Shown: one piece after another, positions 1,269 through 16,142 of the stretch
Position numbering within the stretch: the stretch's first letter is position 1
Layout: each line of letters starts with the position of its first letter
From: a virus
Taxonomy: Duplodnaviria > Heunggongvirae > Uroviricota > Caudoviricetes
Strand: one strand, 5' to 3'
Virus record (IMG/VR): IMGVR_UViG_2563366942_000019
Length of the DNA stretch: 18,919 bases
Notes under the pieces: generated by a model
Databases searched by the model: none
What the model saw: only the letters and a program-made list of their open reading frames with translations
Told to the model about the DNA's origin: nothing
Made by a program: the position numbers and the translations under genes

Positions 1269-1285
1269 AGCCCGGCGTGATTTAT
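1254..1285 (+). terminator. Stem-loop overlapping the nucleotidyltransferase stop codon, between two convergent genes; possible terminator
   Basis: cgccgggc-ataaa-gcccggcg inverted repeat followed by tgatttatt on the plus strand. The U-tract is only moderate. Confidence 0.3.
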
Positions 1286-1737
1286 TGCTGGTATTGCCAA
1301 CTGCTGACTAAAGCGTACAAGTGATTTGGAGAATAGCGCCAGCTTTCCTTCAGTTGCAGAAATTCAGCACAAAATTCACTGCAAAACAGGCGATCGCGCT
1401 GTTCTTTATTACCGATAATAATTCCTAATGCTCCGCGCCAGTCATATTTTTTGCCATCATGTTTACGGAAAAAAGTTTCCACATCCTGAAGGCTGGCCTG
1501 GAGCGGCAGCATATCCCACTTATCCGCTGGCAATGGCATTATTTTTCCGCGTACACCGCGATCGCGCAGTGATGCGGAGTAACAAAGGTAACTCTTTTCA
1601 CCATGCTTAATGGCTAATTCACAGTGGGAATAATGACCACGTGTGATTTTACGGGTAAGCCAGTCAGCCAGTCGGGCAATACCACGGTGCTCTGTTCGGC
1701 CCTTATAACAAGCGAGCCAGACAGTGGTTTTACTCAT
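1282..1737 (-). CDS. Hypothetical protein, last gene of the tail operon; weak resemblance to permuted papain-like (YaeF/YiiX, NlpC/P60-superfamily) hydrolases
   Basis: 151 aa ORF whose ATG overlaps the stop of the fibre chaperone gene (ATGA at 1734-1737). Contains His-containing motif GHYSHCELAIKHG and, C-terminal to it, CSEFCAEF, reminiscent of the His-then-Cys order and CSE motif of permuted NlpC/P60 enzymes. Assignment is from memory of motifs only. Confidence 0.45.
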   Translation of the reverse strand: MSKTTVWLACYKGRTEHRGIARLADWLTRKITRGHYSHCELAIKHGEKSYLCYSASLRDRGVRGKIMPLPADKWDMLPLQASLQDVETFFRKHDGKKYDWRGALGIIIGNKEQRDRLFCSEFCAEFLQLKESWRYSPNHLYALVSSWQYQQ

Positions 1738-2441
1738 GGTTGCCAGCCTGTTGAATAATCGTAGTCGAGCACCGCCTGAATATCGTCCAGTGCTTCCACC
1801 GCCGCGATATGGTGCTGGGCGTTTGCGAACAAGCGCATATCGTGATCCATGGTGACCGATTCAAACTGGGCAGCGATTTCGTTGGTTAACTCAATCAGAC
1901 CATTATTTTTAGTTTTCCACATTAACCCTGGCGGAATTTTTTTCTCCGCTCCCATTTTTGTGAGTGAAAGCTGTTGGATACGGCTATTTGTATCACTGTG
2001 GAAGTGATGGTTGTTGATGATGATGTAATCGGTTGTGATGGCATCGCGTTGATTTTTGATTGCAGAGTATTTCGCCTCTTTAGCATCGGTTATAGATGGT
2101 TGCCATTTTTCACCATCCCAACGTTCAAAAGAACCTGTCGGGGAAATGACTGTTACATTTTCAGGTAATTGGCCCAATTCTTGAATAATAAGCTGGCTAC
2201 CATCAACTTTGTTATAAACAGTTTGGCCTCGATGATCTTCAATAAGTCTCCATGTTTCATTCTCCCACACTGGAGTAAAACCAGGAACCTTTTCGGGAGG
2301 TGAAATTAATGTGCAATAATTTGGCAAGCCTGTATTAGGTGCAATGTATGCATCAGACTCACCGATATATTCTTGGGAGTCTTGTGAAAAATTATATACA
2401 GTTAGTATTTGAGCTTCATCGGAAAAGGTAAAAGTATTCAT
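1734..2441 (-). CDS. Tail fibre assembly chaperone (Tfa-like)
   Basis: 235 aa ORF immediately downstream of the tail fibre gene and coupled to it by an ATGA overlap (2438-2441). N-terminal region has Tfa-like features (aromatic then Gly/Pro-rich, ...[11 protein letters not shown]...). Position matches Mu U / P2 G. Confidence 0.6.
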
Positions 2442-4078
2442 GCTAGCCTCACAATATAGTTGAATGCGATATTTTTGACGGTGTTTTCGGTGTTGCCGGT
2501 ATTATTAATGGTTAGGGAGTGATTATGGGAACCAAGGGCAATTGAATGCGAATGGGTGCCAATTGAAAGTTCATGTGTATGGCTACCCAATGCGATAGTA
2601 TGTGCATGGGTACCAATGGCTGTAGTATGAGAGTGATCACCTACAGTATCGGTATTAACGTAGTCATAACGAGAGTCACCTATAGAATCAGCGGTTAGTG
2701 CATTGCCACCGTAATCAGCATCACCTTTACATGTTATTTGATGTGAATGGCCCCCTGTGCTGGTCGACGATTTACTTCCGTGATTGAACGACGATGTTGT
2801 CTTAGAACCAAGATCAGAGGCAGATGTCGTTTTGTGTCCAAAATCAAAAGATGATGTTGCCTTTGTCCCTAAATCAGTACTCGAAATACTGCCCGTATGG
2901 TTATGTGATTTAATTCCATCCAGTTCAGTAGATAATATAGCTCGCCCACTGGATGGTTTTCCTTTAATTATCCATCCGCGCATGTCAGGAATAACACCAG
3001 ATGGATATGCAATTCCCAGTTTGGGATAGGAGGCTTTATTAAATGTCTGACCTGTCATCAGAGCGTAGCCTGAAGGTATAGAATCAGATGGCCAAGGAAT
3101 AGGCATCCCTACAGGACAGCTTTCCGCAGCAATAGCCTTATCCATCGCTGCCTTAACAGCGTTCGGCGTTGCAGCTTCCGTCGTACTGGTGCTGTTGGTC
3201 GCATTATTAAGTTTCACGACCCCTTTTTGCGTCAGCGTACCGTCGGGGATACCTGTTATTTGCCCCCAGGCATGGGTATGGCTGGACGGTGCCGCAGCAA
3301 TAGCCTTATCCATCGCTGCCTTAACCGCACTTGGTGTTGCAGCTTCCGTCGTACTGGTGCTATTTGTTGTATTGTTAAGCTTAACGACTCCTTTCTGCGT
3401 CAGTGTACCATCAGGGATACCAGTAATCTGATTCCAGGCATGATTATGACTGGTGGCAGCTTTGCTATTTGCCAGGTCATATGCCGTTTTTACCGCTTTT
3501 GGCGTGGCCGCTTTGGTTTCATCATCGCTATTAGTCGCATTACTCAGCTGCGTAAAACCTTTTTGTGTCAGCGTCGCATCAGGATGATTTCGTGATTGCT
3601 GATGTGTTTTCAACGCGTCATCGACATATTCCCTGGTTGCCACAACGACTGAAGGGTCGATCAAAAGCGTCACCGCATCTGCATTGGTGACTTCCATGAC
3701 CGCGCGTATAACGATTTGCTTACTGGCCCCCGCAGGTAATCGTGGCTTATAGGTTTCCGGGAATTTACCAATAGCGACCAGCGTGCCGTCGGTATCCAGT
3801 AACCCAACTTCGCGTACATACCAGCCTCCGACTTGTTCGGGAATAATCGCTTCTGCGATAACCCAGGCCGGATTATCTGGCGCAATTTTTAATGTATTGA
3901 GCTGACCACGCCAGACCTCATGGACTACTTTGGTCTGACTTTCTGTCGGTTCGATATATTTACCATTACCGTCGCCAACTACCATAGTTTGCAGACGGAT
4001 CTGTTTTTGCTCGGCCAGTGCTGAGGCAATTTTGGCTTTGCCTGCAGCAGTTAATATTGTAAAAAATTCACTTGCCAT
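2438..4078 (-). CDS. Tail fibre protein (Mu S / P2 H-like) with internal 56-aa repeats and His-x-His C-terminal tip
   Basis: Start chosen at the internal ATG (4078-4076) giving [39 protein letters not shown], the conserved N-terminus of Mu/P2-type fibres. The track ORF extends to 4201 but would overlap the upstream gene by about 120 nt. Contains tandem fibre-repeat units ([32 protein letters not shown]) and a C-terminal HxH repeat array. Confidence 0.85.
2500..2650. repeat. Short-period coding repeat encoding five His-x-His units at the fibre C-terminus
   Basis: Translation [44 protein letters not shown], with matching nucleotide periodicity around 2520-2640. Confidence 0.6.
3128..3600. repeat. 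About 2.5 tandem copies of a 168-nt unit inside the tail fibre gene
   Basis: aatagccttatccatcgctgccttaac... recurs at 3131 and 3299 (period 168 nt = 56 codons), with a third degenerate partial copy near 3464-3600. The copies encode the repeated fibre motif. Confidence 0.7.
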
Positions 4079-4080
4079 TA

Positions 4081-4812
4081 TTACTCCGGATATACAGACA
4101 TAATTTCGGTGCTCCAGTATCCTGTGCCGACCTTCATCGGTTGGGATTGTGTTAGTCGATCGGGTTGATAAGGTAGTAGTTGAATATATTCCTCCACACA
4201 ATAACCTGTCGCTAAAAATATTCCAGATGACTGGCTGAGGCTTTCTGCAACAGGAGGCAATACTGTAATGACTTCCCCTCCTTGCATGGCACTGCCAATA
4301 ACTGGTATTGGGCTTCGATTAATAAGCCAAATAACAATGCTTTCCAGCTTTGATCGGACATTTTTATATTCATGAATTAATGTGATAAGTGCATTGAATT
4401 CATCTTCATTTAATCCTTTTTCCTCTAGTGTAATATCAACCTTAAAAAAGTAAGCCTTTCCCCCATATTCAAACCATTCTGAAATAGTTCCTGGTAGCGA
4501 AAGTATTTCCAGTACCCGCCGTACCGCCCAAATCGTTCCTTTATATTTATGCAGCTCAATGGCTTGCTTAATTAACTCGCGCTTCTCCCGCTCATCGGTG
4601 GTAAATAACCAACCTTCCAGCCCCTGAACGTGAAATTGTTCTGCAAGGGCTGGTAATGCCGAAGCATCAACCAGGTCGACCAGATAAACCATCAACGCCG
4701 TCAGATCGAGTTGGGCAAAACGCTCGGCGGCGATGTTTGCCAGAATCGAAAAACGCTCATCGCTGGCAAGCGGCGGCGGTGGCAGCAATTTATCCATCGC
4801 TGACTCCGGCAA
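4081..4812 (-). CDS. Baseplate protein, P2 gpI / Mu gp48-like
   Basis: 243 aa; N-terminal [24 protein letters not shown] matches the LLPP..S...R signature of gpI-family tail proteins. Lies between the gpJ-like and fibre genes as in Mu/P2. Start may instead be at Met6; either way it overlaps the gpJ-like stop. Confidence 0.75.
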
Positions 4813-5905
4813 TCGTGACGTCTATTGCGGTGCATTCCGCCCACTCATGCGCCTGCAAAATACGTTTTGTAGGCATATTCAGCGCAACGTCATAGACGCC
4901 ATCGACCTGTAACACTTTGATTATCTGGTTTGGTACAATGTCCTGCCCCAGATGTTTCTGCCGCTGTTGCGTCCAGAGGCTAATCGCTTTACGCGCCGCA
5001 GCCAGCGTTGTCTCCTGATCGGCGGTGGTAAACAGCGTTAGCTGCGCACGGATCTCATACGGCACTCGAAGAGCGCATTTCGCACTCACTTTGTCGGTCA
5101 GCGGTCGTTTTTTCTCCTTGCTGACTTCTTGTTCAATCTGCGCCAGCAACTCCGTGCCGGGTAGACCATTCAGGGTTAGCGGGTAGATCTCCACGCAGCC
5201 TTCTGGCAATCCCTCGTCCGGCCCCAGTACTGCAACGTCAATAATCGACTGGCTAACAGAAAGCGTATGAAAGCGGTATGCGCCATAGCTGCCCGCATTA
5301 CTAAAGCTTTCTGGTGCCAGTTGGATACGCTGGCGCAATGCGTCATCGCTCTCTTCACCGCAGCCGCCCGTTGACGCAGTCAGGTTGGTTACGTTGATGT
5401 CATAATGACCAATCCTGTCGACCAGTGCGCTAATTTGTGCAGGCTGCCAGCCGTTGCCCTGTTCACCTGCTGCGAGGCTGGTGGCAGGAACGGCGATATG
5501 CAAACTCCTGGCCGGAAGCAGAACATCTTCATCGGTGGCGAACATCACGCTATCAGAGGCACTGGCCCGCGTCCCCTGGGGAATCAGGATATTGCTGGTA
5601 TACGCACTGACGACCGAAAACTGCAACGTCGTTTTTGCCGGTTGTGCAGGCAAACGGTGAACGCCCACCAGCTCCCCTAAATAATCCAGCATTGGCGCGC
5701 GGGAATACGCGACCAGGTTCTGTTTCGCCGCTTCCTGAATGGCGATGCGTACAAGGTTTTCACGATAGGCAAACAGGTCGATGAGCAACCGCTCAGCCTG
5801 TGCCGGATAGAGTTTTTTACCGCTGGCATCTTCATATTGCGCAATCATCTCACTGGTAATTTGCGCAGGATCGCGGTCAATAAAATTGGGTTCGGCTATC
5901 GCCAT
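4790..5905 (-). CDS. Baseplate wedge protein, P2 gpJ / Mu gp47 / T4 gp6-like
   Basis: 371 aa; size, position downstream of the gpW-like gene and overlap with neighbours are typical of baseplate J proteins. Confidence 0.75.
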   Translation of the reverse strand: MAIAEPNFIDRDPAQITSEMIAQYEDASGKKLYPAQAERLLIDLFAYRENLVRIAIQEAAKQNLVAYSRAPMLDYLGELVGVHRLPAQPAKTTLQFSVVSAYTSNILIPQGTRASASDSVMFATDEDVLLPARSLHIAVPATSLAAGEQGNGWQPAQISALVDRIGHYDINVTNLTASTGGCGEESDDALRQRIQLAPESFSNAGSYGAYRFHTLSVSQSIIDVAVLGPDEGLPEGCVEIYPLTLNGLPGTELLAQIEQEVSKEKKRPLTDKVSAKCALRVPYEIRAQLTLFTTADQETTLAAARKAISLWTQQRQKHLGQDIVPNQIIKVLQVDGVYDVALNMPTKRILQAHEWAECTAIDVTIAGVSDG

Positions 5906-6255
5906 AACACCTCCGTTGAGTTGATAACGCCGTCAGCGGCGCGCCATTGCACACGTAACGTCAGATGTTCACCGTCGATTACTGGTGTCACCTTCAGCAA
6001 CCGACAGCGCGGTTCCCACTGGCGGATGGCTTCCACCGACTCCCGTACCACATGCGGGATTGCCCGCTCGATGGGGTAATCGATGTAGTGCCACAAGTTG
6101 CTGCCAAACAGCGGTCTGTGAGGATCACTGCCGCGCGGTGTGCGCAGAATGATGTGTATCGCCTGGTGAATATCATCCAGCCCGCAGACGTATTCTTCAG
6201 GCCGCTGCAAGGCCGGTTGCCAGTGCAGCGTTGAGGGGCGTGTTTTTGTTTTCAT
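5896..6255 (-). CDS. Baseplate protein, P2 gpW / Mu gp46 / T4 gp25-like
   Basis: 119 aa; small gp25/gpW-sized protein immediately upstream of the gpJ-like gene with a 10-nt overlap. Confidence 0.7.
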   Translation of the reverse strand: MKTKTRPSTLHWQPALQRPEEYVCGLDDIHQAIHIILRTPRGSDPHRPLFGSNLWHYIDYPIERAIPHVVRESVEAIRQWEPRCRLLKVTPVIDGEHLTLRVQWRAADGVINSTEVLWR

Positions 6256-6316
6256 GAGGGTATTTTCGCCCTGAACGGGCTGTGGAGATATTAAAGCGAT
6301 TTAGAAAACTGATTGA

Positions 6317-6348
6317 TTAAAAAGAGAAAACCCGCCATCAGGCGGGTT
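6317..6348 (-). terminator. Rho-independent terminator-like hairpin between the spike (V-like) and W-like genes
   Basis: Minus-strand RNA would read aacccgcc-ugau-ggcggguu followed by UUCUCUUUUUAAUC, starting 6 nt after the V-like stop (6356-6354). It sits in a 98-nt gap inside an otherwise tightly packed gene string. Confidence 0.45.
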
Positions 6349-8105: not shown

Positions 8106-8302
8106 GGTGGGATCTCCGATAAGGTTTTATTAACGGAAATGACCGGAATAATGAGCTGAATACCGGAAGGCAGTACCGGGTAAATGGCTACATGTGGATT
8201 GGCGGCGATTATGCGTTCATAAGCCAGTGCATCACCGTAGTAATGCCATGCCAGGTTATCCCAGCGTTCGCCATCGGTGGTGATATGTTCAAGGTATCGC
8301 AT
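8093..8302 (-). CDS. Tail protein X-like (LysM-like fold)
   Basis: 69 aa; GERWDNLAWHYYGDALAYERIIAANPHVAIYPVLPSGIQLIIP fits the gpX pattern G.tld.i..ryYG......e.vl.aNP.l......LP.G..v.lP. Confidence 0.7.
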   Translation of the reverse strand: MRYLEHITTDGERWDNLAWHYYGDALAYERIIAANPHVAIYPVLPSGIQLIIPVISVNKTLSEIPPWLR

Positions 8303-9255: not shown

Positions 9256-11630
9256 CAGGCATACCCCCGGCGCTGTTGTTGCGCCATTACGTCGTTAATC
9301 ATTCTTTCCAGTTCGCGTTTACTCATCGTCAACACGTTCTGAATCTCTTTAGTGGTGTTTTGTCCGTTTCCCTGCACGGTAATCTGTGGCGAAAAATTTA
9401 CCTGGACTTTTCCTGAGGAACGGGAGGGTAGCGTCGCCGGTTTGGTTACGGATTTACCAGGTAAAGAGGCAGATACGGGTTTGGCGGCTGTATTTTTTGC
9501 CGCTGGCGCCGATGACGGCGTAGCCGTTTTGCCGGATGGCGCGAGTTGTTTGCCCACCGGCGGCGTTAAAATCGCACCGGCAACGCCTGGAACAACGGTC
9601 GCGGGGGAGACGGATGCGGTATTAGTCGTGCTTGTAATAGCTGTAGCCGATCCTTCTGTACTAATACCCATCGTGGTTTTTAGCCAGTCTGGGATGGCGT
9701 TTTTTACCTGATCAATAATGCCTTTCAGAGCGGGGAAGGCATTCATTATGCCGTCAACCAGACTGCCCAGAAGATTGCTGCCGAACTCGCTAAAACTTGC
9801 AGGCATCTCGACACCAAACCAATTCATCACACTGGAAAAGGCGCTATAGAACAACTCCAGCGGTGACCAGTCGAGAATCAACCGACAAATTCCTGCAATG
9901 CCGCCGTCAAAGGCCGTGGTGATACGTTGCCAGATGGTCGAAAAGAACCTGGAGATAGGCTCCCAGTTGCGACAAATCAGATAAGCAGCGCCCGCAATCG
10001 CAGTGATGACCAGACCAATGGGATTCATCAATAAAACCCTACCCAACCAGAAGACGGTCTGACCTACCTGTTTCAGTGCGCCAATCAGGCCACGACCAAG
10101 CAGTTGCATTAGCCATTTTGCGCTGCCACCCAATGACTTAACCGCTGATAGCATCTTACTTGCCCCGCCTGTGAGCGCCAGACTTGCCTTGACTTTCAGG
10201 AAGATATCGACCAGACGAATAAACGGCGAGGTGATGAGGTTCGCGCCCAGCTTTAAAACATTCAGCGCGCCGTTAAACAGCCAAACCGCCCCGACGATTT
10301 TCGCAATGTTTTGCACCAGCGCCGGATGTTCGCGTAGCCAGGCGCTGAACTGGCGAATAACCGGCGTAAGGCTTTGTGCCAGCTCGCCAATCGCCGGCAT
10401 AAGCTGCAAACCAATGCTGAGCCATAAATCATTTAATGCCAGCTGTAACGCTTTAGTCTGTTCAATGGGCGAGGCCATTTGCGCAGAAAAGTCAGCGTTA
10501 ATCAGATTCTTGCTGGTGGCTTGCATGGCAGAGGCTTTTAACTGGCGATATTCCTCCATATTCGCCAGCATAGGTGCCAGGAATTCCACCGTTTGCGCAT
10601 CGCCGAACATTTCGCCCAGATTAAATTGCGTTACCATCGATTGCAGCGCATTGCTGCGAGCAGATAAATCTTCAATCTGCATAGTGCGTTTGAAGGTGTC
10701 GAGGATCGCCGGATTCATCTTCTCAAGCTGCATTTGTACGATATGAGTCATGGCTTCGCTAACACCCATACCGTTTTGCTGATGTTCAAGCAGAGAGCCT
10801 TGCAGATCGACGCCCTGGCTGGCGAACCAGCTATCGGTTTTTTTCGAAAAGGTGGTTTGCAGAAAGTGGTCGAAATTCTCCGCCGCCGCACTGGCGCTGG
10901 CCCCGTTTTTCATGGCGATCTGCATGGTGGCGCTCAGTTCAGCCATACCTTCCAGACCCTGAGCGCCGGTTTTACCTGCAAATTTCTCTATCCACTGCGT
11001 TTGTTCAGCAATGGCAGGCCCACCGCTTTTGCTAATGCCGTACATCATGTTTTGCGCGGCGTGGAAATTTTCCAGGGCAATATTCAGTCGATCATGGGTT
11101 GCGAGCGCGGCATTCGCCCATGTTTCAGCACTTTCGCGCGTGGCGGTGGCAGCTTTGGCGATCTCCGGCATATAACGGTTGAGATCCTGTATCGACGACA
11201 AATTGCCTTCGATCAGCGTTTGGGCTGCGTTCTGTAAGGTGGTCTGCTGCTGGTTAAAATCCATGCTCCAGTCGCGCAGATTAAGGCTGAGCGTCTCGCG
11301 GGTTGTAGCATTCATCCCACCTTTGGTCGCCATATTGACCATGTTGTCCTGAAACTCATACGGCAACTTCCAGTCGGGGGCTTCAACATTGAATACTTTG
11401 CTAAATTGCCCGGCAAATGTTTGGGTTTTCTCCATCAGATTAGCGCGGCTGCGGCTATTTTCCTCCAGGCGGAGAGCGGAATCGGCAAGCTGCTGCGTTA
11501 GTTTGATAACTGTCGCCTGCTGAGTAGAGAGAGTTAACAATGTTCTGGCGTTGAGTGAGCCGTAACGGGCTATTGCCTGCGTCAACGTCTCATTACGCGC
11601 CTGAAGCTGGGTAATAATATCGTTGGCCAA
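9255..11630 (-). CDS. Tail tape measure protein
   Basis: 791 aa; largest ORF; helical Ala/Gln/Leu-rich body with hydrophobic segments and a Ser/Thr/Pro/Ala-rich low-complexity C-terminus. Located after the tube and chaperone genes as in all contractile tails. Confidence 0.85.
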   Translation of the reverse strand: MANDIITQLQARNETLTQAIARYGSLNARTLLTLSTQQATVIKLTQQLADSALRLEENSRSRANLMEKTQTFAGQFSKVFNVEAPDWKLPYEFQDNMVNMATKGGMNATTRETLSLNLRDWSMDFNQQQTTLQNAAQTLIEGNLSSIQDLNRYMPEIAKAATATRESAETWANAALATHDRLNIALENFHAAQNMMYGISKSGGPAIAEQTQWIEKFAGKTGAQGLEGMAELSATMQIAMKNGASASAAAENFDHFLQTTFSKKTDSWFASQGVDLQGSLLEHQQNGMGVSEAMTHIVQMQLEKMNPAILDTFKRTMQIEDLSARSNALQSMVTQFNLGEMFGDAQTVEFLAPMLANMEEYRQLKASAMQATSKNLINADFSAQMASPIEQTKALQLALNDLWLSIGLQLMPAIGELAQSLTPVIRQFSAWLREHPALVQNIAKIVGAVWLFNGALNVLKLGANLITSPFIRLVDIFLKVKASLALTGGASKMLSAVKSLGGSAKWLMQLLGRGLIGALKQVGQTVFWLGRVLLMNPIGLVITAIAGAAYLICRNWEPISRFFSTIWQRITTAFDGGIAGICRLILDWSPLELFYSAFSSVMNWFGVEMPASFSEFGSNLLGSLVDGIMNAFPALKGIIDQVKNAIPDWLKTTMGISTEGSATAITSTTNTASVSPATVVPGVAGAILTPPVGKQLAPSGKTATPSSAPAAKNTAAKPVSASLPGKSVTKPATLPSRSSGKVQVNFSPQITVQGNGQNTTKEIQNVLTMSKRELERMINDVMAQQQRRGYA

Positions 11631-11819
11631 AATTGTTTCTCTTTAAATATTGATAATGGCCCGCTGGTTATTTTTCTAAAAAAAGGGGCAGGGAAGAAAT
11701 AAACCTGACGGGCTTGGGAAACTCGCAGACATCAGGTCTGCGAGTCATATTCGATTTTTATTTGGGCGCTGGCTTCATCCAGCCAGTTGCTAAAGTCATC
11801 GACGGTAAGGGCGTCTATC

Positions 11820-12137
11820 TCACTGGGTGGAAAGCGAAACCATCTCGCCAGTAACGCCATCGCTTGCCATAACAGTGGCGGATTCTGTAGCCACGCTAAG
11901 CATGGATTGAAATCGTTTCTGCAATGCCTGGTAATCCAGCAAATCCATTTCAGCTAAATCTTCTGGCACCAGTCCGGTCATTGCCGCCATTAGCGGTTCA
12001 TCCCACTCTTCAGGTTTTTCGCTGATCCGGCGCGCGTTGCGCATATCTTTTACTTTCAGGCGACGTAATTGCAGAGTGTTAATTACGTCTCCCGCCGCTG
12101 AAGTAAACGGGAACTGTAAGATATAATGTTCTTTCAT
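11820..12137 (-). CDS. Tail assembly chaperone (P2 gpE / Mu gp41-like)
   Basis: 105 aa acidic protein between the tube and tape-measure genes, the conserved slot for the tape-measure chaperone. The -1 frame stays open for about 33 codons past its stop. Confidence 0.55.
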   Translation of the reverse strand: MKEHYILQFPFTSAAGDVINTLQLRRLKVKDMRNARRISEKPEEWDEPLMAAMTGLVPEDLAEMDLLDYQALQKRFQSMLSVATESATVMASDGVTGEMVSLSTQ

Positions 12138-12187: not shown

Positions 12188-12712
12188 TTAGCCACCGATG
12201 TTATTGCGATAGGTACTTAATTGATCCACACCATTAACCCGGAAAATATTGGCCATATAATCAAGTTCAAGCAGCGTTTCACCATCAACTACTTGTTTAA
12301 TATAAGTGCAACCAAAGGCGCTGCTGAATTCCGGGTTTTCATTCTGTTTAAATGTGCCCAGTGGATTCTTTTTAAACATCACGGTTAAATGTGTCACTAG
12401 CGCTAATTGATTCGCTTTCCCCTGGGAGTTATAGCAATCAATACTGGAGCGGCACTGTAATGCAACCGCCTGCCACGGGTTTGCCGTTTTACGCATTACG
12501 TCCTGATAGAAGGAGTTCCATTTAATTTCGCCCTCCAGTTTATCGAAACCCGCCGGGAGTTCGATTTTACCCACCATGCCCAGTGCTTTATGCTCCTGCA
12601 TAATTAAACTGACATCCGGCAATTTAATTTCGGTTGCACGACCTAAAAGGTTATTACCATCGAGATAAATATTGGCGTTGGTAATACGGTTAATTTGAAT
12701 TTTTCCAGCCAT
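12188..12712 (-). CDS. Tail tube protein (P2 FII / Mu M-like)
   Basis: 174 aa; size and position immediately downstream of the sheath gene (1-nt overlap at 12712). Confidence 0.8.
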   Translation of the reverse strand: MAGKIQINRITNANIYLDGNNLLGRATEIKLPDVSLIMQEHKALGMVGKIELPAGFDKLEGEIKWNSFYQDVMRKTANPWQAVALQCRSSIDCYNSQGKANQLALVTHLTVMFKKNPLGTFKQNENPEFSSAFGCTYIKQVVDGETLLELDYMANIFRVNGVDQLSTYRNNIGG

Positions 12713-14142
12713 TAGCTATTGCTCTCCAGAGAGACTAAATATTCAGAAGTAATTTCAGTTTCAAACGTCAGACGTTCCAGCGGCGGCGGCGGGGTGAATT
12801 TATAGCTCAGCAATAAATGCCCAGCGCTGAGTTCAGTCGGTGAATTTCGCGCCGGATCGTACCAGCATTCAAAGCCAAGCAGTGCGCCGTCGGCAATCAG
12901 CTTACGGCCCCAGGTATTTACCGATTCGGTCAGGGCATCAATCAGCGCCTGATTAATCGGCATATCAATATACTGCTGACTGAAATAACGGATTGACTCA
13001 TTAATTACATCGCCTGTCCGGCGGACGTTTTCAAAGTTACGCATATGGGTCACGGTAGGCCACGCTGCAGTGCGGTTGCCCCACAAGCGCAGACCAGAGC
13101 CGTAACTATTGAAAATAGTGGTAATGCCGTTTTCGTTTAGCTGATTCACTTCGCTTTGTGGATCATCAATCATTGCGGAAAGCGAACGTTCAATACCGGT
13201 AATACCCTGAATTTCTTGGTTTGAGTTGCTCCACCAGAAACCTTTTTCGAGGTCTACTTTGGCACGTAGCCCGGCAGCGCGCGAAGAGAGCGGTTCGAGA
13301 ACTTCTTGGTTAGTGATGCCATCGTAAACTTTGACGTGTGGGTAACATAAACGCGCACGATCAGAGCTGGTGTTGAAGTTGATAGCCCCTTGCGAACCGC
13401 GTCCTGCCAATACCTGCTGGAATGTCGTCCCAATCGGGGCATCAATGTAGGTAATCGCACCAAGTTTTTCCGCTTGTGCAATCAGCTCTGTAGTTACTGA
13501 TTTTTGCGTACAGAACACGGGAGCAAGCAGGATTTTGGCGTAGAAACCATACAGGTTATAGGTGTCCTGTAGCAGTTCCATCCCCGTGCGATCGCCTGCG
13601 GTATTAACGGCACCGATAATATCGGCTGCGGTGACCTTTGTAGGGTCGCACCAGGAATAATAGGCGCAAACTTTCGCACCAGGAGGAATGTCGGCTCCTG
13701 TACGGGTAATTATGCCTGTTTGTTCATCTACGCTAAATGCTGCGGTGTTATAGGTTGATGAATTTGATGAAGAGGGCTTTAGAACCACGTTACGCACATT
13801 GCGGTGAGTGAGTTTCGCCTGGTTGTTAGCATCAAAAGTGATACTTTCATTGCTGATGTTGGAGCCATGTTTTGCCGGATCCAGCACGTTAATCACCACC
13901 ACCGTACCGGCACCGTGGTCATAAATCGCCTTCAGTGCCTGTGGGATCGTAAAGTTAGTCTGAGTCGAACCAAACTGCGCAGCATCGCTTTCAGAAAGGC
14001 ATAATGTTGGTTTATTTACCGGACCACAGGGGGCCGTACCGATTAAAGCGATGACGGCGGATTTTACCGCTTTAACCGGACGCGGGCCGGTTTCAATTTC
14101 AATGGTTTCTACACCGTGCAGATAATTAGCTGCCATGTACAA
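12712..14142 (-). CDS. Contractile tail sheath protein (P2 FI / Mu L-like)
   Basis: 476 aa; N-terminus ...NYLHGVETIEIETGPRPV resembles the conserved sheath N-terminus; size and position are typical. Confidence 0.85.
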   Translation of the reverse strand: MYMAANYLHGVETIEIETGPRPVKAVKSAVIALIGTAPCGPVNKPTLCLSESDAAQFGSTQTNFTIPQALKAIYDHGAGTVVVINVLDPAKHGSNISNESITFDANNQAKLTHRNVRNVVLKPSSSNSSTYNTAAFSVDEQTGIITRTGADIPPGAKVCAYYSWCDPTKVTAADIIGAVNTAGDRTGMELLQDTYNLYGFYAKILLAPVFCTQKSVTTELIAQAEKLGAITYIDAPIGTTFQQVLAGRGSQGAINFNTSSDRARLCYPHVKVYDGITNQEVLEPLSSRAAGLRAKVDLEKGFWWSNSNQEIQGITGIERSLSAMIDDPQSEVNQLNENGITTIFNSYGSGLRLWGNRTAAWPTVTHMRNFENVRRTGDVINESIRYFSQQYIDMPINQALIDALTESVNTWGRKLIADGALLGFECWYDPARNSPTELSAGHLLLSYKFTPPPPLERLTFETEITSEYLVSLESNS

Positions 14143-14323
14143 TTTCCTCTCCGTTATTTTGTTCTTCCTGAGTGATGACAGGAGTCAGATGATTGCGGGC
14201 AATCATGGTCATGACCCACTCGTTGTCTTCTGGCAGATCAATTTCACTGTTCGGCCACAATAAGATTTCTTGTCCGTCGGCAAGGGTGACGCCGCTTGCC
14301 GGGCCGTTGTAGATGTATTTCAT
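14126..14323 (-). CDS. Small tail-associated protein (Mu gp37-like)
   Basis: 65 aa ORF overlapping the sheath start by 17 nt and the upstream gene by 4 nt, in the position of Mu gp37 just upstream of the sheath gene. Confidence 0.45.
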   Translation of the reverse strand: MKYIYNGPASGVTLADGQEILLWPNSEIDLPEDNEWVMTMIARNHLTPVITQEEQNNGEEIVHGS

Positions 14324-14775
14324 TCAGTTTCCTCGTAATTAACTTCAGTAAGCAGGGTAAGGTCCGTGCTTTCCCGTTTCGCGATAAACAGCGAGCTGGT
14401 CGCCATTTCCAGGATGTAGCGGCAGAAACCGCCGCTCTCACCTGTATTAATTTCTTTTTCAAGCCAAAGCAGACGATCGCAATCAGGAAGCTGAAGGCCA
14501 CCCAATGCGCTGCGTATGTGATCAAGTGCGTTTAACGCGTCACAATTTTTGCCAACAATAACGGTGGCGGTTAAGCGAAGTATTTGCTGTTGCACGATGG
14601 CATCACTGCTTTCGGGCGTGGTAAAGACAGAACCGCTATAATTAACAATCACCGCAACTTGTTGTGTCTGTGGAATATATTTCTGGGCATCCGTAGATGA
14701 AATAAATACGTCCATTTCGGGGTTGTGCTCACGTAATCTTGTCACGACACAATTCATTACAGATAAAATTTCCAT
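14320..14775 (-). CDS. Tail completion/terminator-type protein (Mu gp36-like)
   Basis: 151 aa, first gene after the intergenic region and terminator, in the position of Mu gp36 upstream of gp37 and the sheath gene. Confidence 0.45.
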   Translation of the reverse strand: MEILSVMNCVVTRLREHNPEMDVFISSTDAQKYIPQTQQVAVIVNYSGSVFTTPESSDAIVQQQILRLTATVIVGKNCDALNALDHIRSALGGLQLPDCDRLLWLEKEINTGESGGFCRYILEMATSSLFIAKRESTDLTLLTEVNYEETE

Positions 14776-14882
14776 ATAGGCTGTACCTTAATTACCGCTC
14801 ACTTCGTTATCGTTGAGATATATTCTGAAGCAGTGAAGGTGAAGAATCTTTTAATGTGATTTAGAGAAAAAATTGAATGGTT
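14776..14882 (-). promoter_or_regulatory. Putative promoter region for the tail operon (possibly activator-dependent)
   Basis: 107-nt AT-rich gap between the terminator and the first tail gene. No convincing sigma70 -35/-10 pair was found by eye, as would be expected for a Mor/C-dependent late promoter. Confidence 0.3.
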
Positions 14883-14920
14883 AAAAAAATCCCCACCCTT
14901 ACATAAGGGTGGGGATTTTT
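14883..14920 (-). terminator. Rho-independent (bidirectional) terminator after the lysis cassette
   Basis: ccccaccct-tacata-agggtgggg 9-bp stem flanked by aaaaaaa (14883-14889) and attttt (14915-14920). On the minus strand the stem is followed by a U7 tract. Abuts the stop of the 14920-15234 gene. Confidence 0.7.
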
Positions 14921-15234
14921 CAATAACTGCCACGTTGTAACAGCTCGATTTTGCTATATAAGGCATCCAGCTTCGCTTCTAATACTGCTTGCCCACGAAG
15001 ATAATCTTCTCTGCGGACATAATGCAGCGGAAGCTCGGCACGAAATTCGAGAAATTCTCTTTCCAGTTTCGACCAACTTGTTTCTGATTCCCTGCGGGCA
15101 TTTTCCAGAGACTCAAAACGCTCATTAAGTCGTTTTTCAATTTGTGCTAACAGCAGTTTTCCGGCAGCAAACATTAATCCAACGAAGGAAAGCATAAGGG
15201 AGATCACTTCCCAAAAATCGATACTGAGTTTCAT
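14920..15234 (-). CDS. Lysis-cassette membrane protein: N-terminal transmembrane helix plus coiled-coil (i-spanin-like, or Mu gp25 releasin-like)
   Basis: 104 aa; hydrophobic segment WEVISLMLSFVGLMFAAGKLLLA followed by a charged heptad region (EKRLNERFESLENARRESETSWSKLEREFLEFRAEL). Good RBS (agagggg) upstream; lies 12 nt after the transglycosylase stop. Confidence 0.45.
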   Translation of the reverse strand: MKLSIDFWEVISLMLSFVGLMFAAGKLLLAQIEKRLNERFESLENARRESETSWSKLEREFLEFRAELPLHYVRREDYLRGQAVLEAKLDALYSKIELLQRGSY

Positions 15235-15246
15235 CGGCCCCTCTGA

Positions 15247-15852
15247 TTAATGAAGACAGCTTGCCTGTCCCCAGAGTAAATAGCGGGCGGCATGTTGATA
15301 GAGGATCATCTTTGGATAGCGACGATTTTCTCGCCAGTTCGTGGCGCTGCGCCCGGCGTTGACTTGCTCAACATGACCAAACCAGCTAGTGGCATCTAAC
15401 CCTTTGGATGCAGCCAGTTTTTTATCCCGGTTAACCCACCCCTGACCGCCGTTATAGGCGCTTAGGGTAAACGCCATACGCTGACAATCATTTTTCGCAG
15501 AGATGTTTTTCCACAAATGCTGGTCATATTGCACCAGCGCGCGAATCGCCCAGGTTGGGTTATACGGTTTGTTTTCACGCAATTGTGGATACAACTGGCT
15601 TATCCATGTCGCTGTAGCAGGCATAAATTGCGCCATACCTTGTGCGCCAACGGGGGAACGTACCATTGGCTGCCAGGCGGACTCCTGGTGTAATTGCCCG
15701 GCAAAGTCGGCCACTGGAGCATTCAGCCCCCAGACTTCTCGAGCTGTACGAATTAGTTCGTTTCGCCATGCCAGAGAGGCTCGCGGCGGTTCAGAGGCGT
15801 TAAGCGGGAAAAGAACGAAAATAATCATAGACGCGATATATTTCAGCCACAT
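15247..15852 (-). CDS. Lytic transglycosylase (SLT domain) with N-terminal signal/SAR-like sequence; putative endolysin
   Basis: Start chosen at the internal ATG (15852-15850) giving MWLKYIASMIIFVLFPLNA. SLT family-1 motifs are present: HQESAW, GAQGMAQFMP, AYNGGQGW. The track ORF starting at 15930 would overlap the upstream gene by 76 nt. Confidence 0.75.
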   Translation of the reverse strand: MWLKYIASMIIFVLFPLNASEPPRASLAWRNELIRTAREVWGLNAPVADFAGQLHQESAWQPMVRSPVGAQGMAQFMPATATWISQLYPQLRENKPYNPTWAIRALVQYDQHLWKNISAKNDCQRMAFTLSAYNGGQGWVNRDKKLAASKGLDATSWFGHVEQVNAGRSATNWRENRRYPKMILYQHAARYLLWGQASCLH

Positions 15853-15854
15853 CA

Positions 15855-16142
15855 CTATAGCCCTAAGGCGACGGAAAGACAGACGGCGGCAACGATGATG
15901 GCGCGGCGAATCATTGCCGCCGCGCAGCAACGAGGTTCCTTCCAGGGGCTAAAAGAGTCAGGCCGTGCCCAGGGGAACAAACTGCGATCGAGCCAGTATC
16001 CCAGCACCGCGGAAAGCGAAACCAGGCTTAGTTTATAAATGACGACCGGGATCTGTGCTGAAGAGGTCCAGCCGATCACGACAAACAGCGCGACGGAAGC
16101 GACCAGCCAACCGGAAAGCCGGGGAAGAGTGACTTTTTTCAT
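15855..16142 (-). CDS. Small membrane protein with 2-3 hydrophobic segments (putative holin or pinholin)
   Basis: 95 aa; hydrophobic stretches LSGWLVASVALFVVIGW, LSLVSLSAVLGYWL and AIIVAAVCLSVALGL. Strong RBS (caggagataccgtATG). Directly precedes the transglycosylase gene. Confidence 0.45.
   Translation of the reverse strand: MKKVTLPRLSGWLVASVALFVVIGWTSSAQIPVVIYKLSLVSLSAVLGYWLDRSLFPWARPDSFSPWKEPRCCAAAMIRRAIIVAAVCLSVALGL

What the first reader, a model, noticed from the sequence alone, without database searches (positions are those of the whole stretch)
1282..16142. Head-less Mu-type contractile tail plus lysis cassette: candidate R-type tailocin or prophage remnant
Every component needed for a contractile tail particle is present in one co-oriented string, and the order (sheath, tube, chaperone, tape measure, U/X, hub, spike, W, J, I, fibre, Tfa) matches phage Mu rather than P2. 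The lysis cassette is followed by a clean terminator and then directly by the gp36/gp37-like and sheath genes; in Mu the whole head module lies between these. No portal, terminase, protease/scaffold, capsid, integrase or replication gene is visible. Together with a Mor-type activator next door, this is the architecture of a tailocin locus. Reading frames appear intact and tightly coupled, arguing against a decaying remnant.
Basis: partly seen in the sequence, partly recalled or inferred. Interest (0 to 1): 0.75.

Follow-up and report, generated by a model that had tools for sequence, protein, structure and literature searches.

The report
Head-less phage-tail weapon cluster in E. coli
This stretch of an E. 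coli chromosome encodes a complete contractile phage tail and cell-lysis genes but no phage head. It is most likely an old, domesticated "tailocin" for killing rival bacteria, related to carotovoricin of plant pathogens and shared with Salmonella, and in this strain a jumping gene has split its DNA-damage switch.

Summary
Window 1282-16142 (minus strand) carries 19 intact, tightly packed genes: holin, SLT endolysin, a gp25-like membrane protein, tail terminator, sheath, tube, chaperone, tape measure, U, X, D, V, W, J, I, fibre, Tfa and a YiiX-like hydrolase. The window is E. coli MS 21-1. Core genes (yjbD/rluF on one side, lysC/pgi on the other) flank the island directly, and there are no head, terminase, integrase or transposase genes within 15 kb.

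- **Origin.** The tail is BcepMu-type rather than Mu proper. Its nearest characterised relative is carotovoricin of Pectobacterium (sheath 75-76% identical).
- **Age and selection.** The same island sits beside lysC in Salmonella (STM4198-4219), Superficieibacter and Phytobacter. All 20 genes are intact in both E. coli and Salmonella, with dN/dS of 0.04-0.27. This argues strongly against a decaying remnant.
- **Predicted circuit.** A conserved LexA box lies in front of mor. Three late promoters share a box also found in BcepMu-type phages, and the head-operon promoter was kept and now drives the tail genes.
- **Caveats.** In this strain ISEc53 sits in the centre of the LexA box. There are no spanins. 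Neither particles nor killing have been shown.

Verdict: a new member of a known kind, of moderate to high interest.

The parts
18572..18919 (+). Mor/C-family late transcription activator. It is a homologue of BcepMu gp01 (49% identical) and is transcribed away from the tail genes, as in BcepMu.
   Evidence: PF08765, E 7e-38. tblastn against BcepMu and KP12. 88-90% identical to Salmonella STM4219.
18346..18362 (+). Right half of the split LexA box (ACAGTA, 18346-18351), followed by the invariant GTGTAAAATGAT with a candidate -10 hexamer TAAAAT (18357-18362) for the mor promoter.
   Evidence: Alignment of IS-free E. coli and Salmonella intergenic regions. Box coordinates.
16453..18337 (-). ISEc53 (ISL3 family), 1885 bp. 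It carries the transposase (16481-17701) and a ClbS/DfsB DUF1706 passenger gene (17720-18238). An 8-bp target duplication ATGTGCAT lies at 16445-16452 and 18338-18345. The element is inserted in the centre of the LexA box.
   Evidence: Pfam. Comparison with IS-free strain 20. Junctions. Inverted repeats. This junction occurs in only 8 of 5426 genomes.
16439..16444 (+). Left half of the split LexA box (TACTGT).
   Evidence: The intact box TACTGTATGTG[C/T]ATACAGTA is present in IS-free strains.
16212..16225 (-). Late-promoter box (TTAAACTTATTTAT) about 70 nt upstream of the holin gene. Candidate Mor-dependent lysis promoter.
   Evidence: Motif scan. Conserved in Salmonella. Equivalent boxes lie upstream of the holin gene in BcepMu, KP12, PhiKM and carotovoricin loci.
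15855..16142 (-). Holin with three hydrophobic segments.
   Evidence: PF13272, E 4e-27. phrog_1528 holin. Hydropathy. dN/dS 0.079.
15247..15852 (-). Lytic transglycosylase endolysin with an N-terminal signal or signal-anchor-release-like segment.
   Evidence: PF01464 SLT. phrog_669 endolysin. 55-66% identical to BcepMu gp22 and the KP12 lysin.
14920..15234 (-). 104-aa membrane protein with an N-terminal transmembrane segment and a helical cytoplasmic domain. It is a homologue of BcepMu gp25 and occupies the position of the Mu gp25 'releasin'.
   Evidence: tblastn 46-49% to BcepMu gp25 and KP12_277. Hydropathy. Mu releasin paper PMC9239132. No DUF2730 HMM hit. dN/dS 0.051.
14883..14914 (-). Intrinsic terminator ending the lysis operon.
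   Evidence: Sequence. Coordinates. The plus-strand twin was reported by the scan.
14851..14864 (-). Late-promoter box (CTAAATCACATTAA, within TTTTTTCTCTAAATCACATTAAAAG) that drives the gp37-to-V operon. It is the retained head-operon late promoter of the ancestral phage.
   Evidence: A near-identical box lies between the G-like gene and the protease gene in phages KP12 and PhiKM, and a related box in BcepMu. The same box is present in carotovoricin loci.
14320..14775 (-). Tail terminator / collar protein (Gp37 family, homologue of STM4215 = PDB 2GJV).
14126..14323 (-). 65-aa gp38-like protein of unknown role. It is conserved next to the sheath gene in BcepMu-type phages.
   Evidence: phrog_895. 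tblastn to BcepMu gp38 and KP12_264.
12712..14136 (-). Tail sheath.
   Evidence: PF04984, PF17482. 71% identical to BcepMu gp39 and 74% to KP12. 75-76% identical to the Pectobacterium carotovoricin sheath. Matches the R2 pyocin sheath in PDB at E 2e-45.
12188..12712 (-). Tail tube.
   Evidence: PF04985, E 4e-56. Between E. coli alleles there are 24 synonymous and 0 non-synonymous changes.
11732..12137 (-). Tail assembly chaperone (11820-12137) plus an overlapping 42-codon GpE'-like ORF (11732-11860) in the +1 frame.
   Evidence: PF10109. Frame analysis. Weak PF06528 hit, E 1e-3, below the curated cut-off.
9255..11630 (-). Tape measure protein, 791 aa.
   Evidence: PF10145. Same length (788-791 aa) in Salmonella and in E. 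coli G3X16-2; 783 aa in E. coli A10, where annotated coordinates give a 24-nt-shorter gene.
7065..9255 (-). GpU-like protein (8302-9255), X (8093-8302) and GpD-type baseplate hub (7065-8105).
   Evidence: PF06995, PF05489, PF05954.
6354..7055 (-). V-type central spike.
   Evidence: PF04717.
6291..6348 (-). Intrinsic terminator after V (6329-6348), followed by the third late-promoter box (CTAAATCGCTTTAA, 6291-6304) upstream of W.
   Evidence: The same box (GCTTTAATATC) lies upstream of W in BcepMu, KP12 and PhiKM. In Salmonella the box is kept downstream of the gtrABC insertion.
4081..6255 (-). Baseplate wedge genes W (5896-6255), J (4790-5905) and I (4081-4797).
   Evidence: PF04965, PF04865, PF09684. 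dN/dS 0.04-0.10.
1734..4078 (-). Tail fibre (2438-4078, 546 aa) and fibre assembly chaperone (1734-2441). The fibre has an N-terminal collar-fibre domain, duplicated fibre repeats and a T4 gp37-like His-rich tip. This is the strain-variable cassette, and it has low G+C.
   Evidence: Pfam and PHROGs. The C-terminus aligns to the end of T4 gp37 and peduovirus fibres. Three fibre/Tfa variants exist among E. coli strains. G+C is 0.41-0.46. A 162-nt repeat lies within the fibre.
1282..1737 (-). 151-aa YiiX-like (permuted NlpC/P60) putative cysteine hydrolase, the last gene of the fibre operon. It is conserved even where the fibre and Tfa have been swapped.

Best explanation
This is a chromosomally fixed, head-less contractile-tail (R-type tailocin) gene cluster. 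It derives from a BcepMu-type transposable phage, is a sibling of the carotovoricin cluster of Pectobacterium, and sits between yjbD and lysC.

What is shown:
- It encodes every structural part that solved R-type tailocins contain: terminator/collar, sheath, tube, chaperone, tape measure, U, X, hub, spike, W, J, I, fibre and fibre chaperone. It also encodes a holin and a transglycosylase endolysin.
- It has no head, packaging, replication or integration genes.
- The same head-less island lies at the same locus in at least four genera and is under purifying selection.

Proposed mechanism (inferred from conserved sequence elements):
1. In the ancestral, IS-free form, LexA binds a near-consensus SOS box just upstream of the mor promoter.
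2. DNA damage removes LexA, and Mor is made.
3. Mor activates three late promoters that share a YTAAA-N5-TTAW box: holin-endolysin-gp25-like; terminator through spike; and W through the fibre, Tfa and the YiiX-like gene.
4. The middle promoter is the former head-operon promoter. It was retained while the head genes on both sides of it were deleted.
5. Tails roughly 120 nm long (from the 791-aa tape measure) assemble, are capped by the gp37 terminator, and are released by holin/endolysin lysis of the producer cell.
6. The strain-variable fibre, whose tip resembles T4 gp37, binds the surface of related enterobacteria. Sheath contraction then drives the tube through the envelope and kills the target.

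In the window's own strain, ISEc53 has split the LexA box and replaced the upstream half of the mor promoter. SOS control of this copy is therefore lost, and the copy may be silent or mis-regulated.
For: **Architecture and flanks.**

**BcepMu origin and the exact set of genes lost** (gp02-gp20, Rz/Rz1, gp26-gp36)..

**Terminator fold of gp37, including a match to the R2-pyocin and diffocin collars.**

**Orthologous island next to lysC.** Found in Salmonella, and in Superficieibacter and Phytobacter. Gp37 homologues at 86-87% identity are named from E. albertii, but that locus was not inspected.

**Purifying selection.**
- All 20 genes are intact in both E. coli and Salmonella.
- dN/dS is 0.04-0.27 in the 18 genes where it could be computed; dS was saturated for mor and orf151.
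- dS is 0.6-2.5, comparable to flanking lysC (1.19) and pgi (0.72).
- Within E. coli the concatenated dN/dS is 0.12. The tube gene, for example, has 24 synonymous and 0 non-synonymous changes.

**Population retention.** 203 of 5426 complete E. coli genomes carry the island. Of these, 191 have at least 80% of the 12-kb core in one place, mostly as a single gap-free piece.

**Relationship to carotovoricin.** Sheath 75-76% identical, same order, and the same terminator plus late box between the gp25-like gene and gp37.

**LexA box.** Conserved in E. coli, Salmonella, Superficieibacter and Phytobacter inside an otherwise diverged intergenic region. It is uninterrupted in 185 E. coli genomes.

**Late box.**
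- It occurs exactly three times in the window, all on the coding strand upstream of the three operons.
- It is present at the equivalent lysis, head and baseplate promoters of BcepMu, KP12 and PhiKM.

**Fibre.** It is complete to a T4 gp37-like C-terminus, and the fibre/Tfa cassette is exchanged between strains as in known tailocins (PMC13195805).
Against: - No experiment shows particles, induction or killing for this island in any species. Searches of the paper library found none.
- The lysis cassette has no spanin. No Rz homologue and no lipobox ORF were found, whereas carotovoricin keeps Rz.
- In this strain the LexA box and the mor promoter region are split by ISEc53.
- PGAP flags the fibre as a pseudogene.
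- Only 3.7% of complete E. coli genomes carry the island. A few carriers have it broken, for example by ISEcp1-blaCTX-M-15 in the tape measure gene of strain Ecol_881.
- The late-box count alone is only weakly significant: 3 observed against 0.93 expected, with 14 of 200 shuffles reaching 3. That Mor binds the box, and that LexA binds the SOS box, are inferences.
- The GpE'-like ORF is in the +1 frame rather than the usual -1 frame, so the chaperone frameshift product is uncertain.
Confidence: 0.72

Rival explanations
1. Inert prophage remnant. On this reading it is a BcepMu-like prophage that lost its head and early genes and is simply decaying, with no selected function.
For: - It is clearly phage-derived, and its head, early and spanin genes have been lost.
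- It is present in only 3.7% of complete E. coli genomes.
- IS elements have landed in it: ISEc53 in this strain and ISEcp1 in the tape measure gene of Ecol_881.
- PGAP calls the fibre a pseudogene.
- Salmonella literature and annotation treat the region as anonymous phage-tail or hypothetical genes. One example is STM4200, used only as a PCR marker.
Against: - All 20 genes are intact in E. coli and Salmonella despite saturated synonymous divergence, with dN/dS of 0.04-0.27.
- Within E. coli, dN/dS is 0.12.
- The 12-kb core is retained without gaps in about 190 genomes.
- The same head-less layout is kept in four genera.
- Non-coding regulatory elements (SOS box, three late boxes, two terminators) are conserved.
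- The deletion end-points fall exactly at the functional head/tail boundary and preserve a promoter.
Confidence: 0.12
2. The island family is a functional tailocin, but the copy in this window (the IAI39 / CE10 / MS 21-1 lineage) is regulatory-dead or mis-regulated. ISEc53 has destroyed the LexA operator and the upstream half of the mor promoter.
For: - The IS lies exactly in the centre of the box, with an 8-bp duplication, and no CTGT-N8-ACAG remains in the window.
- Only 8 genomes share this junction, against 185 with the uninterrupted region.
- The IS end replaces the DNA 17 bp upstream of the candidate -10 hexamer.
Against: - The candidate -10 hexamer, mor itself, the three late boxes and all ORFs are untouched.
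- IS ends can create outward or hybrid promoters.
- The lineage is too young (98.9-100% identity) for decay to show either way.
Confidence: 0.45
3. The cluster is a functional contractile particle or lysis module with a role other than killing related bacteria. Possibilities include an eCIS-like injector aimed at eukaryotic cells, tails supplied to a head-only satellite, or a programmed-lysis device for releasing DNA, vesicles or other cargo.
For: - Purifying selection shows that there is a function but not which one.
- A conserved YiiX-like hydrolase of unknown role ends the operon.
- In Salmonella an O-antigen glucosylation operon is embedded in the cluster.
Against: - There is no eCIS hallmark: no AAA+ ATPase and no toxin or effector genes. 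Every ORF is accounted for.
- The fibre tip is of the T4 gp37 / peduovirus type used on enterobacterial surfaces, and it is swapped between strains as in bacteriocin arms races.
- The closest characterised relative is a bactericidal tailocin.
- No head-only partner was seen within 15 kb.
Confidence: 0.08

Closest known systems
Carotovoricin Er (Ctv), the R-type tailocin of Pectobacterium (Yamada et al. 2006; PMC13195805)
   Same: - It has the same BcepMu-type ancestry and the same gene order: holin, SLT lysin, gp25-like, terminator plus late box, Gp37 terminator, gp38, sheath, tube, chaperone, TMP, U, X, D, V, W, J, I, fibre.
- Protein identities to the window are: sheath 75-76%, tube 76%, gp25-like 66%.
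- The late-box motif lies upstream of the holin gene, gp37 and W.
- It is a head-less, vertically inherited chromosomal locus with exchangeable fibres.
   Different: - Ctv lies between tolC_2 and ybiB, not at lysC.
- It keeps an Rz-like gene.
- No mor gene or LexA box was found within the 10 kb upstream in the Pectobacterium loci examined.
- Gp37 is only 34-38% identical and the TMP only 21-27%.
- Ctv activity is experimentally proven; activity of this island is not.
Burkholderia phage BcepMu and the enterobacterial Bcepmuviruses (Klebsiella KP12_2, Escherichia PhiKM)
   Same: - The tail module is collinear from gp37 to the fibre. The sheath is 71-74% identical and the tube 69-76%.
- They have the same holin, SLT endolysin and gp25-like proteins.
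- The Mor homologue lies at the far end on the opposite strand.
- The same late-promoter boxes are present.
   Different: These phages carry a transposase and early genes, Rz/Rz1, terminase, portal, protease, capsid and the gp36 adaptor. All of these are absent here.
Salmonella enterica STM4198-STM4219 'phage tail' region next to lysC (STM4215 = PDB 2GJV)
   Same: It is the orthologous island. It occupies the same chromosomal slot and has the same 20 genes in the same order, at 55-96% protein identity. It has the same LexA box, late boxes and terminators.
   Different: - It carries a gtrABC O-antigen glucosylation operon inserted between V and W.
- Its cargo on the yjbD side is different.
- Its fibre allele is different.
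- It has no IS in the operator.
R2 pyocin of Pseudomonas aeruginosa
   Same: - It has the same set of structural protein families: collar/terminator fold, sheath, tube, E-type chaperone, TMP, U, X, D, V, W, J, I, fibre and fibre chaperone. It also has a lysis cassette.
- It is SOS-inducible, which I state from established knowledge.
   Different: - It is P2-derived and has the P2 gene order, with the baseplate and fibre genes before sheath-tube-TMP-U-X-D.
- It is regulated through PrtR/PrtN rather than LexA and Mor (established knowledge).
- It has spanins.
R-type syringacin of Pseudomonas syringae (tailocin with a Mu/SfV-like tail; PMC4542187)
   Same: It is an independent example of a tailocin with a Mu-order tail that lost its head and replication genes.
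   Different: - It derives from a Mu/SfV-type tail, not a BcepMu-type tail.
- The Pseudomonas relatives of this window's sheath (61-63% identical) that turned up in the genome scan all still have head genes. They are prophages, not that tailocin.

Membership tests
R-type (contractile) tailocin | A complete set of contractile-tail structural genes: terminator/collar, sheath, tube, tape measure plus chaperone, hub, spike, wedge proteins, fibre plus chaperone. | tested here: met
   [not shown]
R-type (contractile) tailocin | No capsid, portal, terminase, replication or integration genes in or next to the cluster. | tested here: met
   15 kb on each side in the source genome contains only core genes. 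There are no tblastn hits to BcepMu TerL, portal, MCP, gp36 or transposase in the orthologous loci.
R-type (contractile) tailocin | A dedicated lysis cassette for release. | tested here: inconclusive
   A holin, an SLT endolysin and a gp25-like protein are present and under strong constraint. No spanin is present.
R-type (contractile) tailocin | Maintained by selection as a host locus: a stable position, intact across lineages, and a variable receptor-binding end. | tested here: met
   It lies at the same lysC-adjacent locus in four genera. dN/dS is 0.04-0.27 between genera and 0.12 within E. coli. 191 of 203 carriers keep the core. The fibre/Tfa cassette is exchanged between strains.
R-type (contractile) tailocin | Stress (SOS)-inducible expression. 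| tested here: inconclusive
   A near-consensus LexA box in front of mor is conserved in IS-free E. coli, Salmonella, Superficieibacter and Phytobacter. In the window itself the box is split by ISEc53. Binding and induction were not testable.
R-type (contractile) tailocin | Production of head-less particles with bactericidal activity. | not testable with these tools
   This needs induction, electron microscopy and spot-killing assays. No report was found in the paper library.
Carotovoricin-type (BcepMu-derived) tailocin cluster | Sequence relatedness and collinearity with the Pectobacterium ctv cluster, including the lysis cassette - terminator - late promoter - Gp37 junction. | tested here: met
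   Sheath 75-76%, tube 76%, gp25-like 66%. The L016 layout was checked by Pfam. The junction motif is shared.
Carotovoricin-type (BcepMu-derived) tailocin cluster | The tolC_2 / ybiB genomic location, and an Rz-type spanin in the lysis cassette. | tested here: not met
   The island lies between yjbD and lysC. It has no Rz homologue, whereas Rz is found at 35-46% identity to BcepMu Rz in the Pectobacterium, Brenneria and Samsonia loci. This makes it a sibling lineage, not the ctv locus itself.
Phage Mu (Muvirus) tail in the strict sense | Mu-type baseplate proteins, for example the gp43 DNA-circulation protein in place of U and X. | tested here: not met
   The P2-type families GpU (PF06995), X (PF05489) and GpD (PF05954) were found instead. 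The best phage matches are Bcepmuvirus. Only the gene order and the Mor activator are Mu-like.
Intact BcepMu-like transposable prophage | Transposase A/B, repressor, terminase, portal, protease/scaffold, major capsid protein, head-tail adaptor. | tested here: not met
   None of these is present in the window or its flanks.
Extracellular contractile injection system (Afp / PVC type) | An AAA+ ATPase, a cap or tail-length proteins of the Afp14/16 type, and cargo toxin genes. | tested here: not met
   No such domains occur in any ORF. Afp and PVC sheaths match only weakly, at E of about 3e-4 to 6e-4.

The most novel reading that the evidence does not exclude
The yjbD-lysC island is an anciently domesticated tailocin. 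By synonymous divergence (0.6-2.5, against 0.72 and 1.19 in the flanking pgi and lysC genes) it is at least about as old as the flanking core genes of Escherichia and Salmonella. It is shared by E. coli, Salmonella, Superficieibacter and Phytobacter, and is still functional.

On this reading it runs on a minimal two-step circuit that has not been described for any tailocin: a LexA box, then a Mor-type activator, then three late promoters, one of which is the recycled head-operon promoter.

It would also have:
- spanin-less lysis that uses a gp25 (releasin-position) protein;
- a conserved YiiX-like cysteine hydrolase as a new accessory component;
- in Salmonella, an embedded gtr operon that could serve as self-protection.

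If so, model organisms such as S. Typhimurium LT2 carry an overlooked bacteriocin weapon.
Probability: 0.4. Interest if true: 0.7.

Novelty: new member of a known kind. Interest (0 to 1): 0.58.

Why it matters
Among enterobacteria, tailocins are well studied in plant and insect pathogens (and in Pseudomonas beyond them). I found no paper in the library describing one for this locus in E. coli or Salmonella, where the genes are annotated only as anonymous phage-tail proteins.

If it is functional, it would be:
1. an unrecognised competition weapon in clinically important lineages, including E. coli IAI39 and CE10 and Salmonella serovars such as Typhimurium LT2;
2. a natural, genetically tractable chassis with T4-gp37-type, swappable fibres for engineered narrow-spectrum antibacterials;
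3. a clean case study of phage domestication, showing how head genes were removed on both sides of a late promoter that was kept, and how a LexA box was coupled to a phage late activator.

The IS-split operator in this strain is a natural regulatory mutant, which allows a direct comparison with intact strains. Every step of the proposed circuit can be tested with standard E. coli and Salmonella genetics.

Tried and rejected
- **ST131 'tailocin' (BMC Biol 2022, PMC9205054).** I checked whether it is this locus. It is a P2-like complete prophage elsewhere in the genome.
- **Salmonella locus tags.** Searches for STM4198-4219 found only marker, screen and table mentions, with no functional study.
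- **Tailocin with Salmonella, lysC, Mor or LexA.** These searches found nothing relevant.
- **gp25-like protein as a releasin.** I tested it against the DUF2730 releasin family by HMM and got no hit even at E of 5 or less. 'Releasin-like' therefore rests only on position, topology and homology to BcepMu gp25.
- **Spanins.** There is no lipobox ORF in any frame of the lysis region and no Rz homologue.
- **The 151-aa, 104-aa, 65-aa and flanking proteins.** NCBIfam and PADLOC gave nothing useful.
- **RNA families.** The Rfam scan of the window found none.
- **Pseudomonas loci.** Those with 61-63% sheath identity looked as if they might be the known Mu-like Pseudomonas tailocins. All have terminase and portal hits, so they are prophages.
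- **-1 chaperone frameshift.** I looked for a classical one, but the GpE'-like ORF is in the +1 frame, so this remains unresolved.
- **Sigma-70 scan.** The simple consensus scan gave fewer promoter-like hits than shuffled sequence and missed the minus-strand terminator. I did not rely on it.
- **Technical note.** Loci fetched in parallel calls reached the Python sandbox only after a later call. This cost.

Full report
**What is in the window.** Six-frame ORF listing with Pfam and PHROGs scans shows one co-oriented, minus-strand string of 19 genes from 16142 down to 1282. In order they are: holin (PF13272), SLT-domain endolysin, a 104-aa membrane protein, a Gp37-family protein, a 65-aa protein, sheath, tube, an E-type chaperone, a 791-aa tape measure, GpU-like, X, GpD hub, V spike, W, J, I, a 546-aa fibre, a Tfa-type chaperone and a 151-aa ORF. 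Thirteen of the 18 junctions overlap or leave 2 bases or fewer. The larger gaps hold regulatory signals, described below. To the right lie an ISL3 transposase, a DUF1706 (ClbS/DfsB) gene and, on the plus strand, a Mor-family activator. To the left are the 3' part of a slipin gene and an RlaP-type nucleotidyltransferase.

**Where it comes from and what flanks it.** The window is 100% identical to the chromosome of E. coli MS 21-1 and about 99% identical to IAI39 and CE10. With 15 kb added on each side, the island is bounded by rluF-yjbD on one side and lysC-pgi on the other. No portal, terminase, protease, capsid, integrase or transposase-A gene is present.

**Which phage it derives from.** The sheath is 71% identical to gp39 of Burkholderia phage BcepMu. 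It is 74% identical to the sheaths of the enterobacterial Bcepmuviruses Klebsiella KP12_2 and Escherichia PhiKM. The annotated BcepMu genome and tblastn of every island protein show strict collinearity from gp37 to the fibre. The holin, endolysin and 104-aa protein correspond to gp21, gp22 and gp25, and Mor corresponds to gp01, in the same relative orientation as in the phage. Three blocks are missing:
- gp02-gp20, the early and transposition genes;
- gp23/24, Rz and Rz1;
- gp26-gp36, covering TerS, TerL, portal, F, G, protease/scaffold, capsid, gp35 and the gp36 adaptor.

However, the proteins are P2-family U, X, D, V, W, J and I proteins rather than Mu's own, so 'BcepMu-type' is the accurate label.

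The head deletion therefore stops exactly at the functional head/tail boundary. It keeps the one neck-side protein that solved tailocins also keep.

**It is not a private remnant.** An orthologous island occupies the same yjbD-lysC slot in Salmonella enterica, as STM4198-STM4219 with lysC = STM4220. It has the same 20 genes in the same order, plus a gtrABC operon inserted between V and W. A scan of one genome per bacterial species found the same head-less, Rz-less, mor-containing island next to lysC in Superficieibacter electus, a second Superficieibacter species and Phytobacter massiliensis. Gp37 homologues of 86-87% identity are named from Escherichia albertii.

Evidence of selection:
- Between E. 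coli and Salmonella all 20 genes are intact. dN/dS is 0.04-0.27 in the 18 genes where it could be computed; dS was saturated for mor and orf151.
- Synonymous divergence (0.6-2.5) is comparable to that of the flanking lysC (1.19) and pgi (0.72).
- Between divergent E. coli alleles, all of them head-less and at this locus, the concatenated dN/dS is 0.12. The tube gene, for example, has 24 synonymous and 0 non-synonymous changes.
- 203 of 5426 complete E. coli genomes carry the island, always on the chromosome. Of these, 191 hold at least 80% of the 12-kb holin-to-I core in one place, mostly as a single piece of unchanged length.
- A few copies are broken, for example by ISEcp1-blaCTX-M-15 in the tape measure gene of strain Ecol_881.

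This pattern is what selection for function produces, not decay.

**Closest characterised system.** A second head-less group appeared in Pectobacterium, Samsonia, Brenneria and Lonsdalea, with sheaths 72-76% identical. In Pectobacterium aroidearum the cluster starts right after a TolC-like gene. It then reads holin, SLT lysin, Rz-like, gp25-like, Gp37 and sheath. This matches the published carotovoricin cluster, which is bounded by tolC_2 and ybiB, contains a holin and a lytic transglycosylase, and has four transcription units (PMC13195805). The island is therefore a sibling of a proven tailocin. It differs in location, in lacking Rz, and in having an adjacent mor gene and SOS box.

**Regulatory anatomy (inferred mechanism).** IS-free E. 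coli strains have a 537-bp divergent region between the holin gene and mor. Aligning it with the Salmonella region shows a near-consensus LexA box standing out from diverged flanks. The E. coli box is TACTGTATGTG[C/T]ATACAGTA and the Salmonella box is AACTGTATATATATACAGTA. Toward mor, the box is followed by an invariant GTGTAAAATGAT containing a good -10 hexamer. The box is also present at the same place in Superficieibacter and Phytobacter.

A second motif, YTAAA-N5-TTAW, occurs exactly three times in the 18.9-kb window. All three are on the coding strand, upstream of the holin gene (16212-16225), gp37 (14851-14864) and W (6291-6304). Chance expectation is 0.93. Four observations support its being a promoter element:
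- The three sites are conserved in Salmonella.
- The sites in front of gp37 and W follow intrinsic terminators (14883-14914 and 6329-6348).
- The same box lies upstream of the holin gene and of W in BcepMu, KP12 and PhiKM.
- It lies upstream of the holin gene, gp37 and W in carotovoricin loci.

The gp37 box is the most telling. In strain A10 it reads TTTTTTCTCTAAAGCAGATTAAAAG. This is almost identical to the box in the phages' intergenic region between the G-like gene and the protease/scaffold gene (KP12: TTTTTTCTAAAGCAGATTAAAAG). The head operon's late promoter was therefore kept while the head genes on both sides of it were removed, and it now drives terminator-sheath-tube...spike.

The most economical reading has four steps. 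LexA represses mor. DNA damage releases Mor. Mor, the only Mor/C-type activator in this phage family, switches on three late operons. Tails are then built and released by lysis. That LexA and Mor bind these elements is inference.

**Status of this particular copy.** In the window, an 1885-bp ISEc53 copy (16453-18337) carries the transposase and the ClbS/DfsB gene. It is flanked by an 8-bp duplication, ATGTGCAT, and sits in the exact centre of the LexA box. TACTGT remains at 16439-16444 and ACAGTA at 18346-18351, and no CTGT-N8-ACAG is left in the window. Only 8 genomes share this junction, including IAI39 and CE10. By contrast, 185 genomes have the uninterrupted region. SOS control is lost in this lineage. 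Whether mor is silent or driven from the IS end cannot be decided from sequence, and the ORFs show no decay yet.

**Lysis and the receptor-binding end.**
- No Rz homologue and no lipobox ORF exists in the lysis region. Outer-membrane disruption is therefore not encoded, and this loss is shared by all lysC-type islands.
- The 104-aa protein has an N-terminal transmembrane segment and a helical domain, and it sits where Mu has its gp25 releasin (PMC9239132). It does not match DUF2730, so that role is only a suggestion.
- PGAP marks the fibre as two pseudogene fragments. The ORF is nevertheless uninterrupted and contains a 162-nt duplicated fibre repeat. Its last 227 residues align to the very end of T4 gp37 and peduovirus fibres at 55-58% identity. 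I consider it intact.
- E. coli strains carry at least three different fibre/Tfa cassettes, with breakpoints in the I C-terminus and in Tfa. The local G+C is low, at 0.41-0.46. This is the diversification seen in known tailocins.

**Conclusion.** The evidence supports a domesticated, carotovoricin-family R-type tailocin locus with a predicted LexA-Mor-late-promoter circuit. In this strain the operator is damaged by an IS. The island is a new member of a known kind. Nothing in the searchable literature describes it as a tailocin in E. coli or Salmonella, though that library is incomplete. Particle formation and killing remain to be shown.

Noticed in passing
window 16453-18337 (TSD at 16445-16452 and 18338-18345): ISEc53 (ISL3 family) carries a ClbS/DfsB (DUF1706) passenger gene within its inverted repeats. 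It is inserted precisely in the centre of the palindromic LexA box, which may be a case of an IS targeting a palindrome. The junction occurs in only 8 of 5426 complete E. coli genomes, including IAI39 and CE10.
   Followed up: yes
[not shown]
   Followed up: partly
L006 7586-10421 (Salmonella SARB27; STM4204-4206): In Salmonella, a gtrABC O-antigen glucosylation operon is inserted between V and W, just upstream of the conserved W late-promoter box. It could act as self-protection against the particle or against phages. This was not tested.
   Followed up: no
window 1-1268 (+); L001 14344-16268: Between yjbD and the tail cluster, the E. coli island carries a slipin (SPFH) gene and an RlaP-type nucleotidyltransferase. 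The slipin gene is a pseudogene with an internal stop in this strain but is intact in strains 20, A10 and G3X16-2. Salmonella has unrelated cargo at this end. There were no PADLOC hits.
   Followed up: partly
L009 8904-12443 (E. coli Ecol_881): An ISEcp1-blaCTX-M-15 transposition unit, with further resistance genes beyond it, is inserted into the tape measure gene of the island. The locus thus serves as a chromosomal landing site for ESBL genes in some clinical strains.
   Followed up: no
window 11732-11860 (-): A 42-codon GpE'-like ORF overlaps the 3' end of the chaperone gene in the +1 frame, not the -1 frame classical for P2 E/E'. Whether it is made by frameshifting or translated on its own is unclear. 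Its Pfam GpE match is weak (E 1e-3, below the curated cut-off).
   Followed up: partly
window 16226-16438; alignment A1 columns about 313-369: Between the LexA box and the holin late box lie two further blocks conserved between E. coli and Salmonella: AAAAAGATCG-TT-CCTCAC and ACTTTAAAAATCAA. Their function is unknown, but they may be additional regulator sites.
   Followed up: no
phage-collection records OR845313, OR845696, OR851066, OR850896, OR850955, OR851449: Short (1.7-6 kb), unannotated records named 'Escherichia phage ECO95 1-6-1' and 'Salmonella phage S.Kent 1-2-1' match parts of the island at 75-88% DNA identity. One fragment is 97% identical in protein to the sheath C-terminus. Why fragments of a head-less cluster are deposited as phage is unexplained.
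   Followed up: no
L044-L053 (Chromobacterium spp.), L015 and L017 (Brenneria): Other apparently head-less variants exist. In the Chromobacterium contigs a mor homologue lies within 2-3 kb upstream of gp37/gp38/sheath, with no lysis or head hits. The Brenneria loci have mor plus a partial transposase hit next to a head-less cluster. The contigs are short, so the layouts are uncertain.
   Followed up: no
window 2438-4078 (-); L001 17840-19078: PGAP annotates the fibre as two partial pseudogenes, both in this strain and in strain 20, although the ORF is open and complete. The likely cause is its mosaic nature and the internal 162-nt duplication (3124-3285 and 3292-3453).
   Followed up: yes
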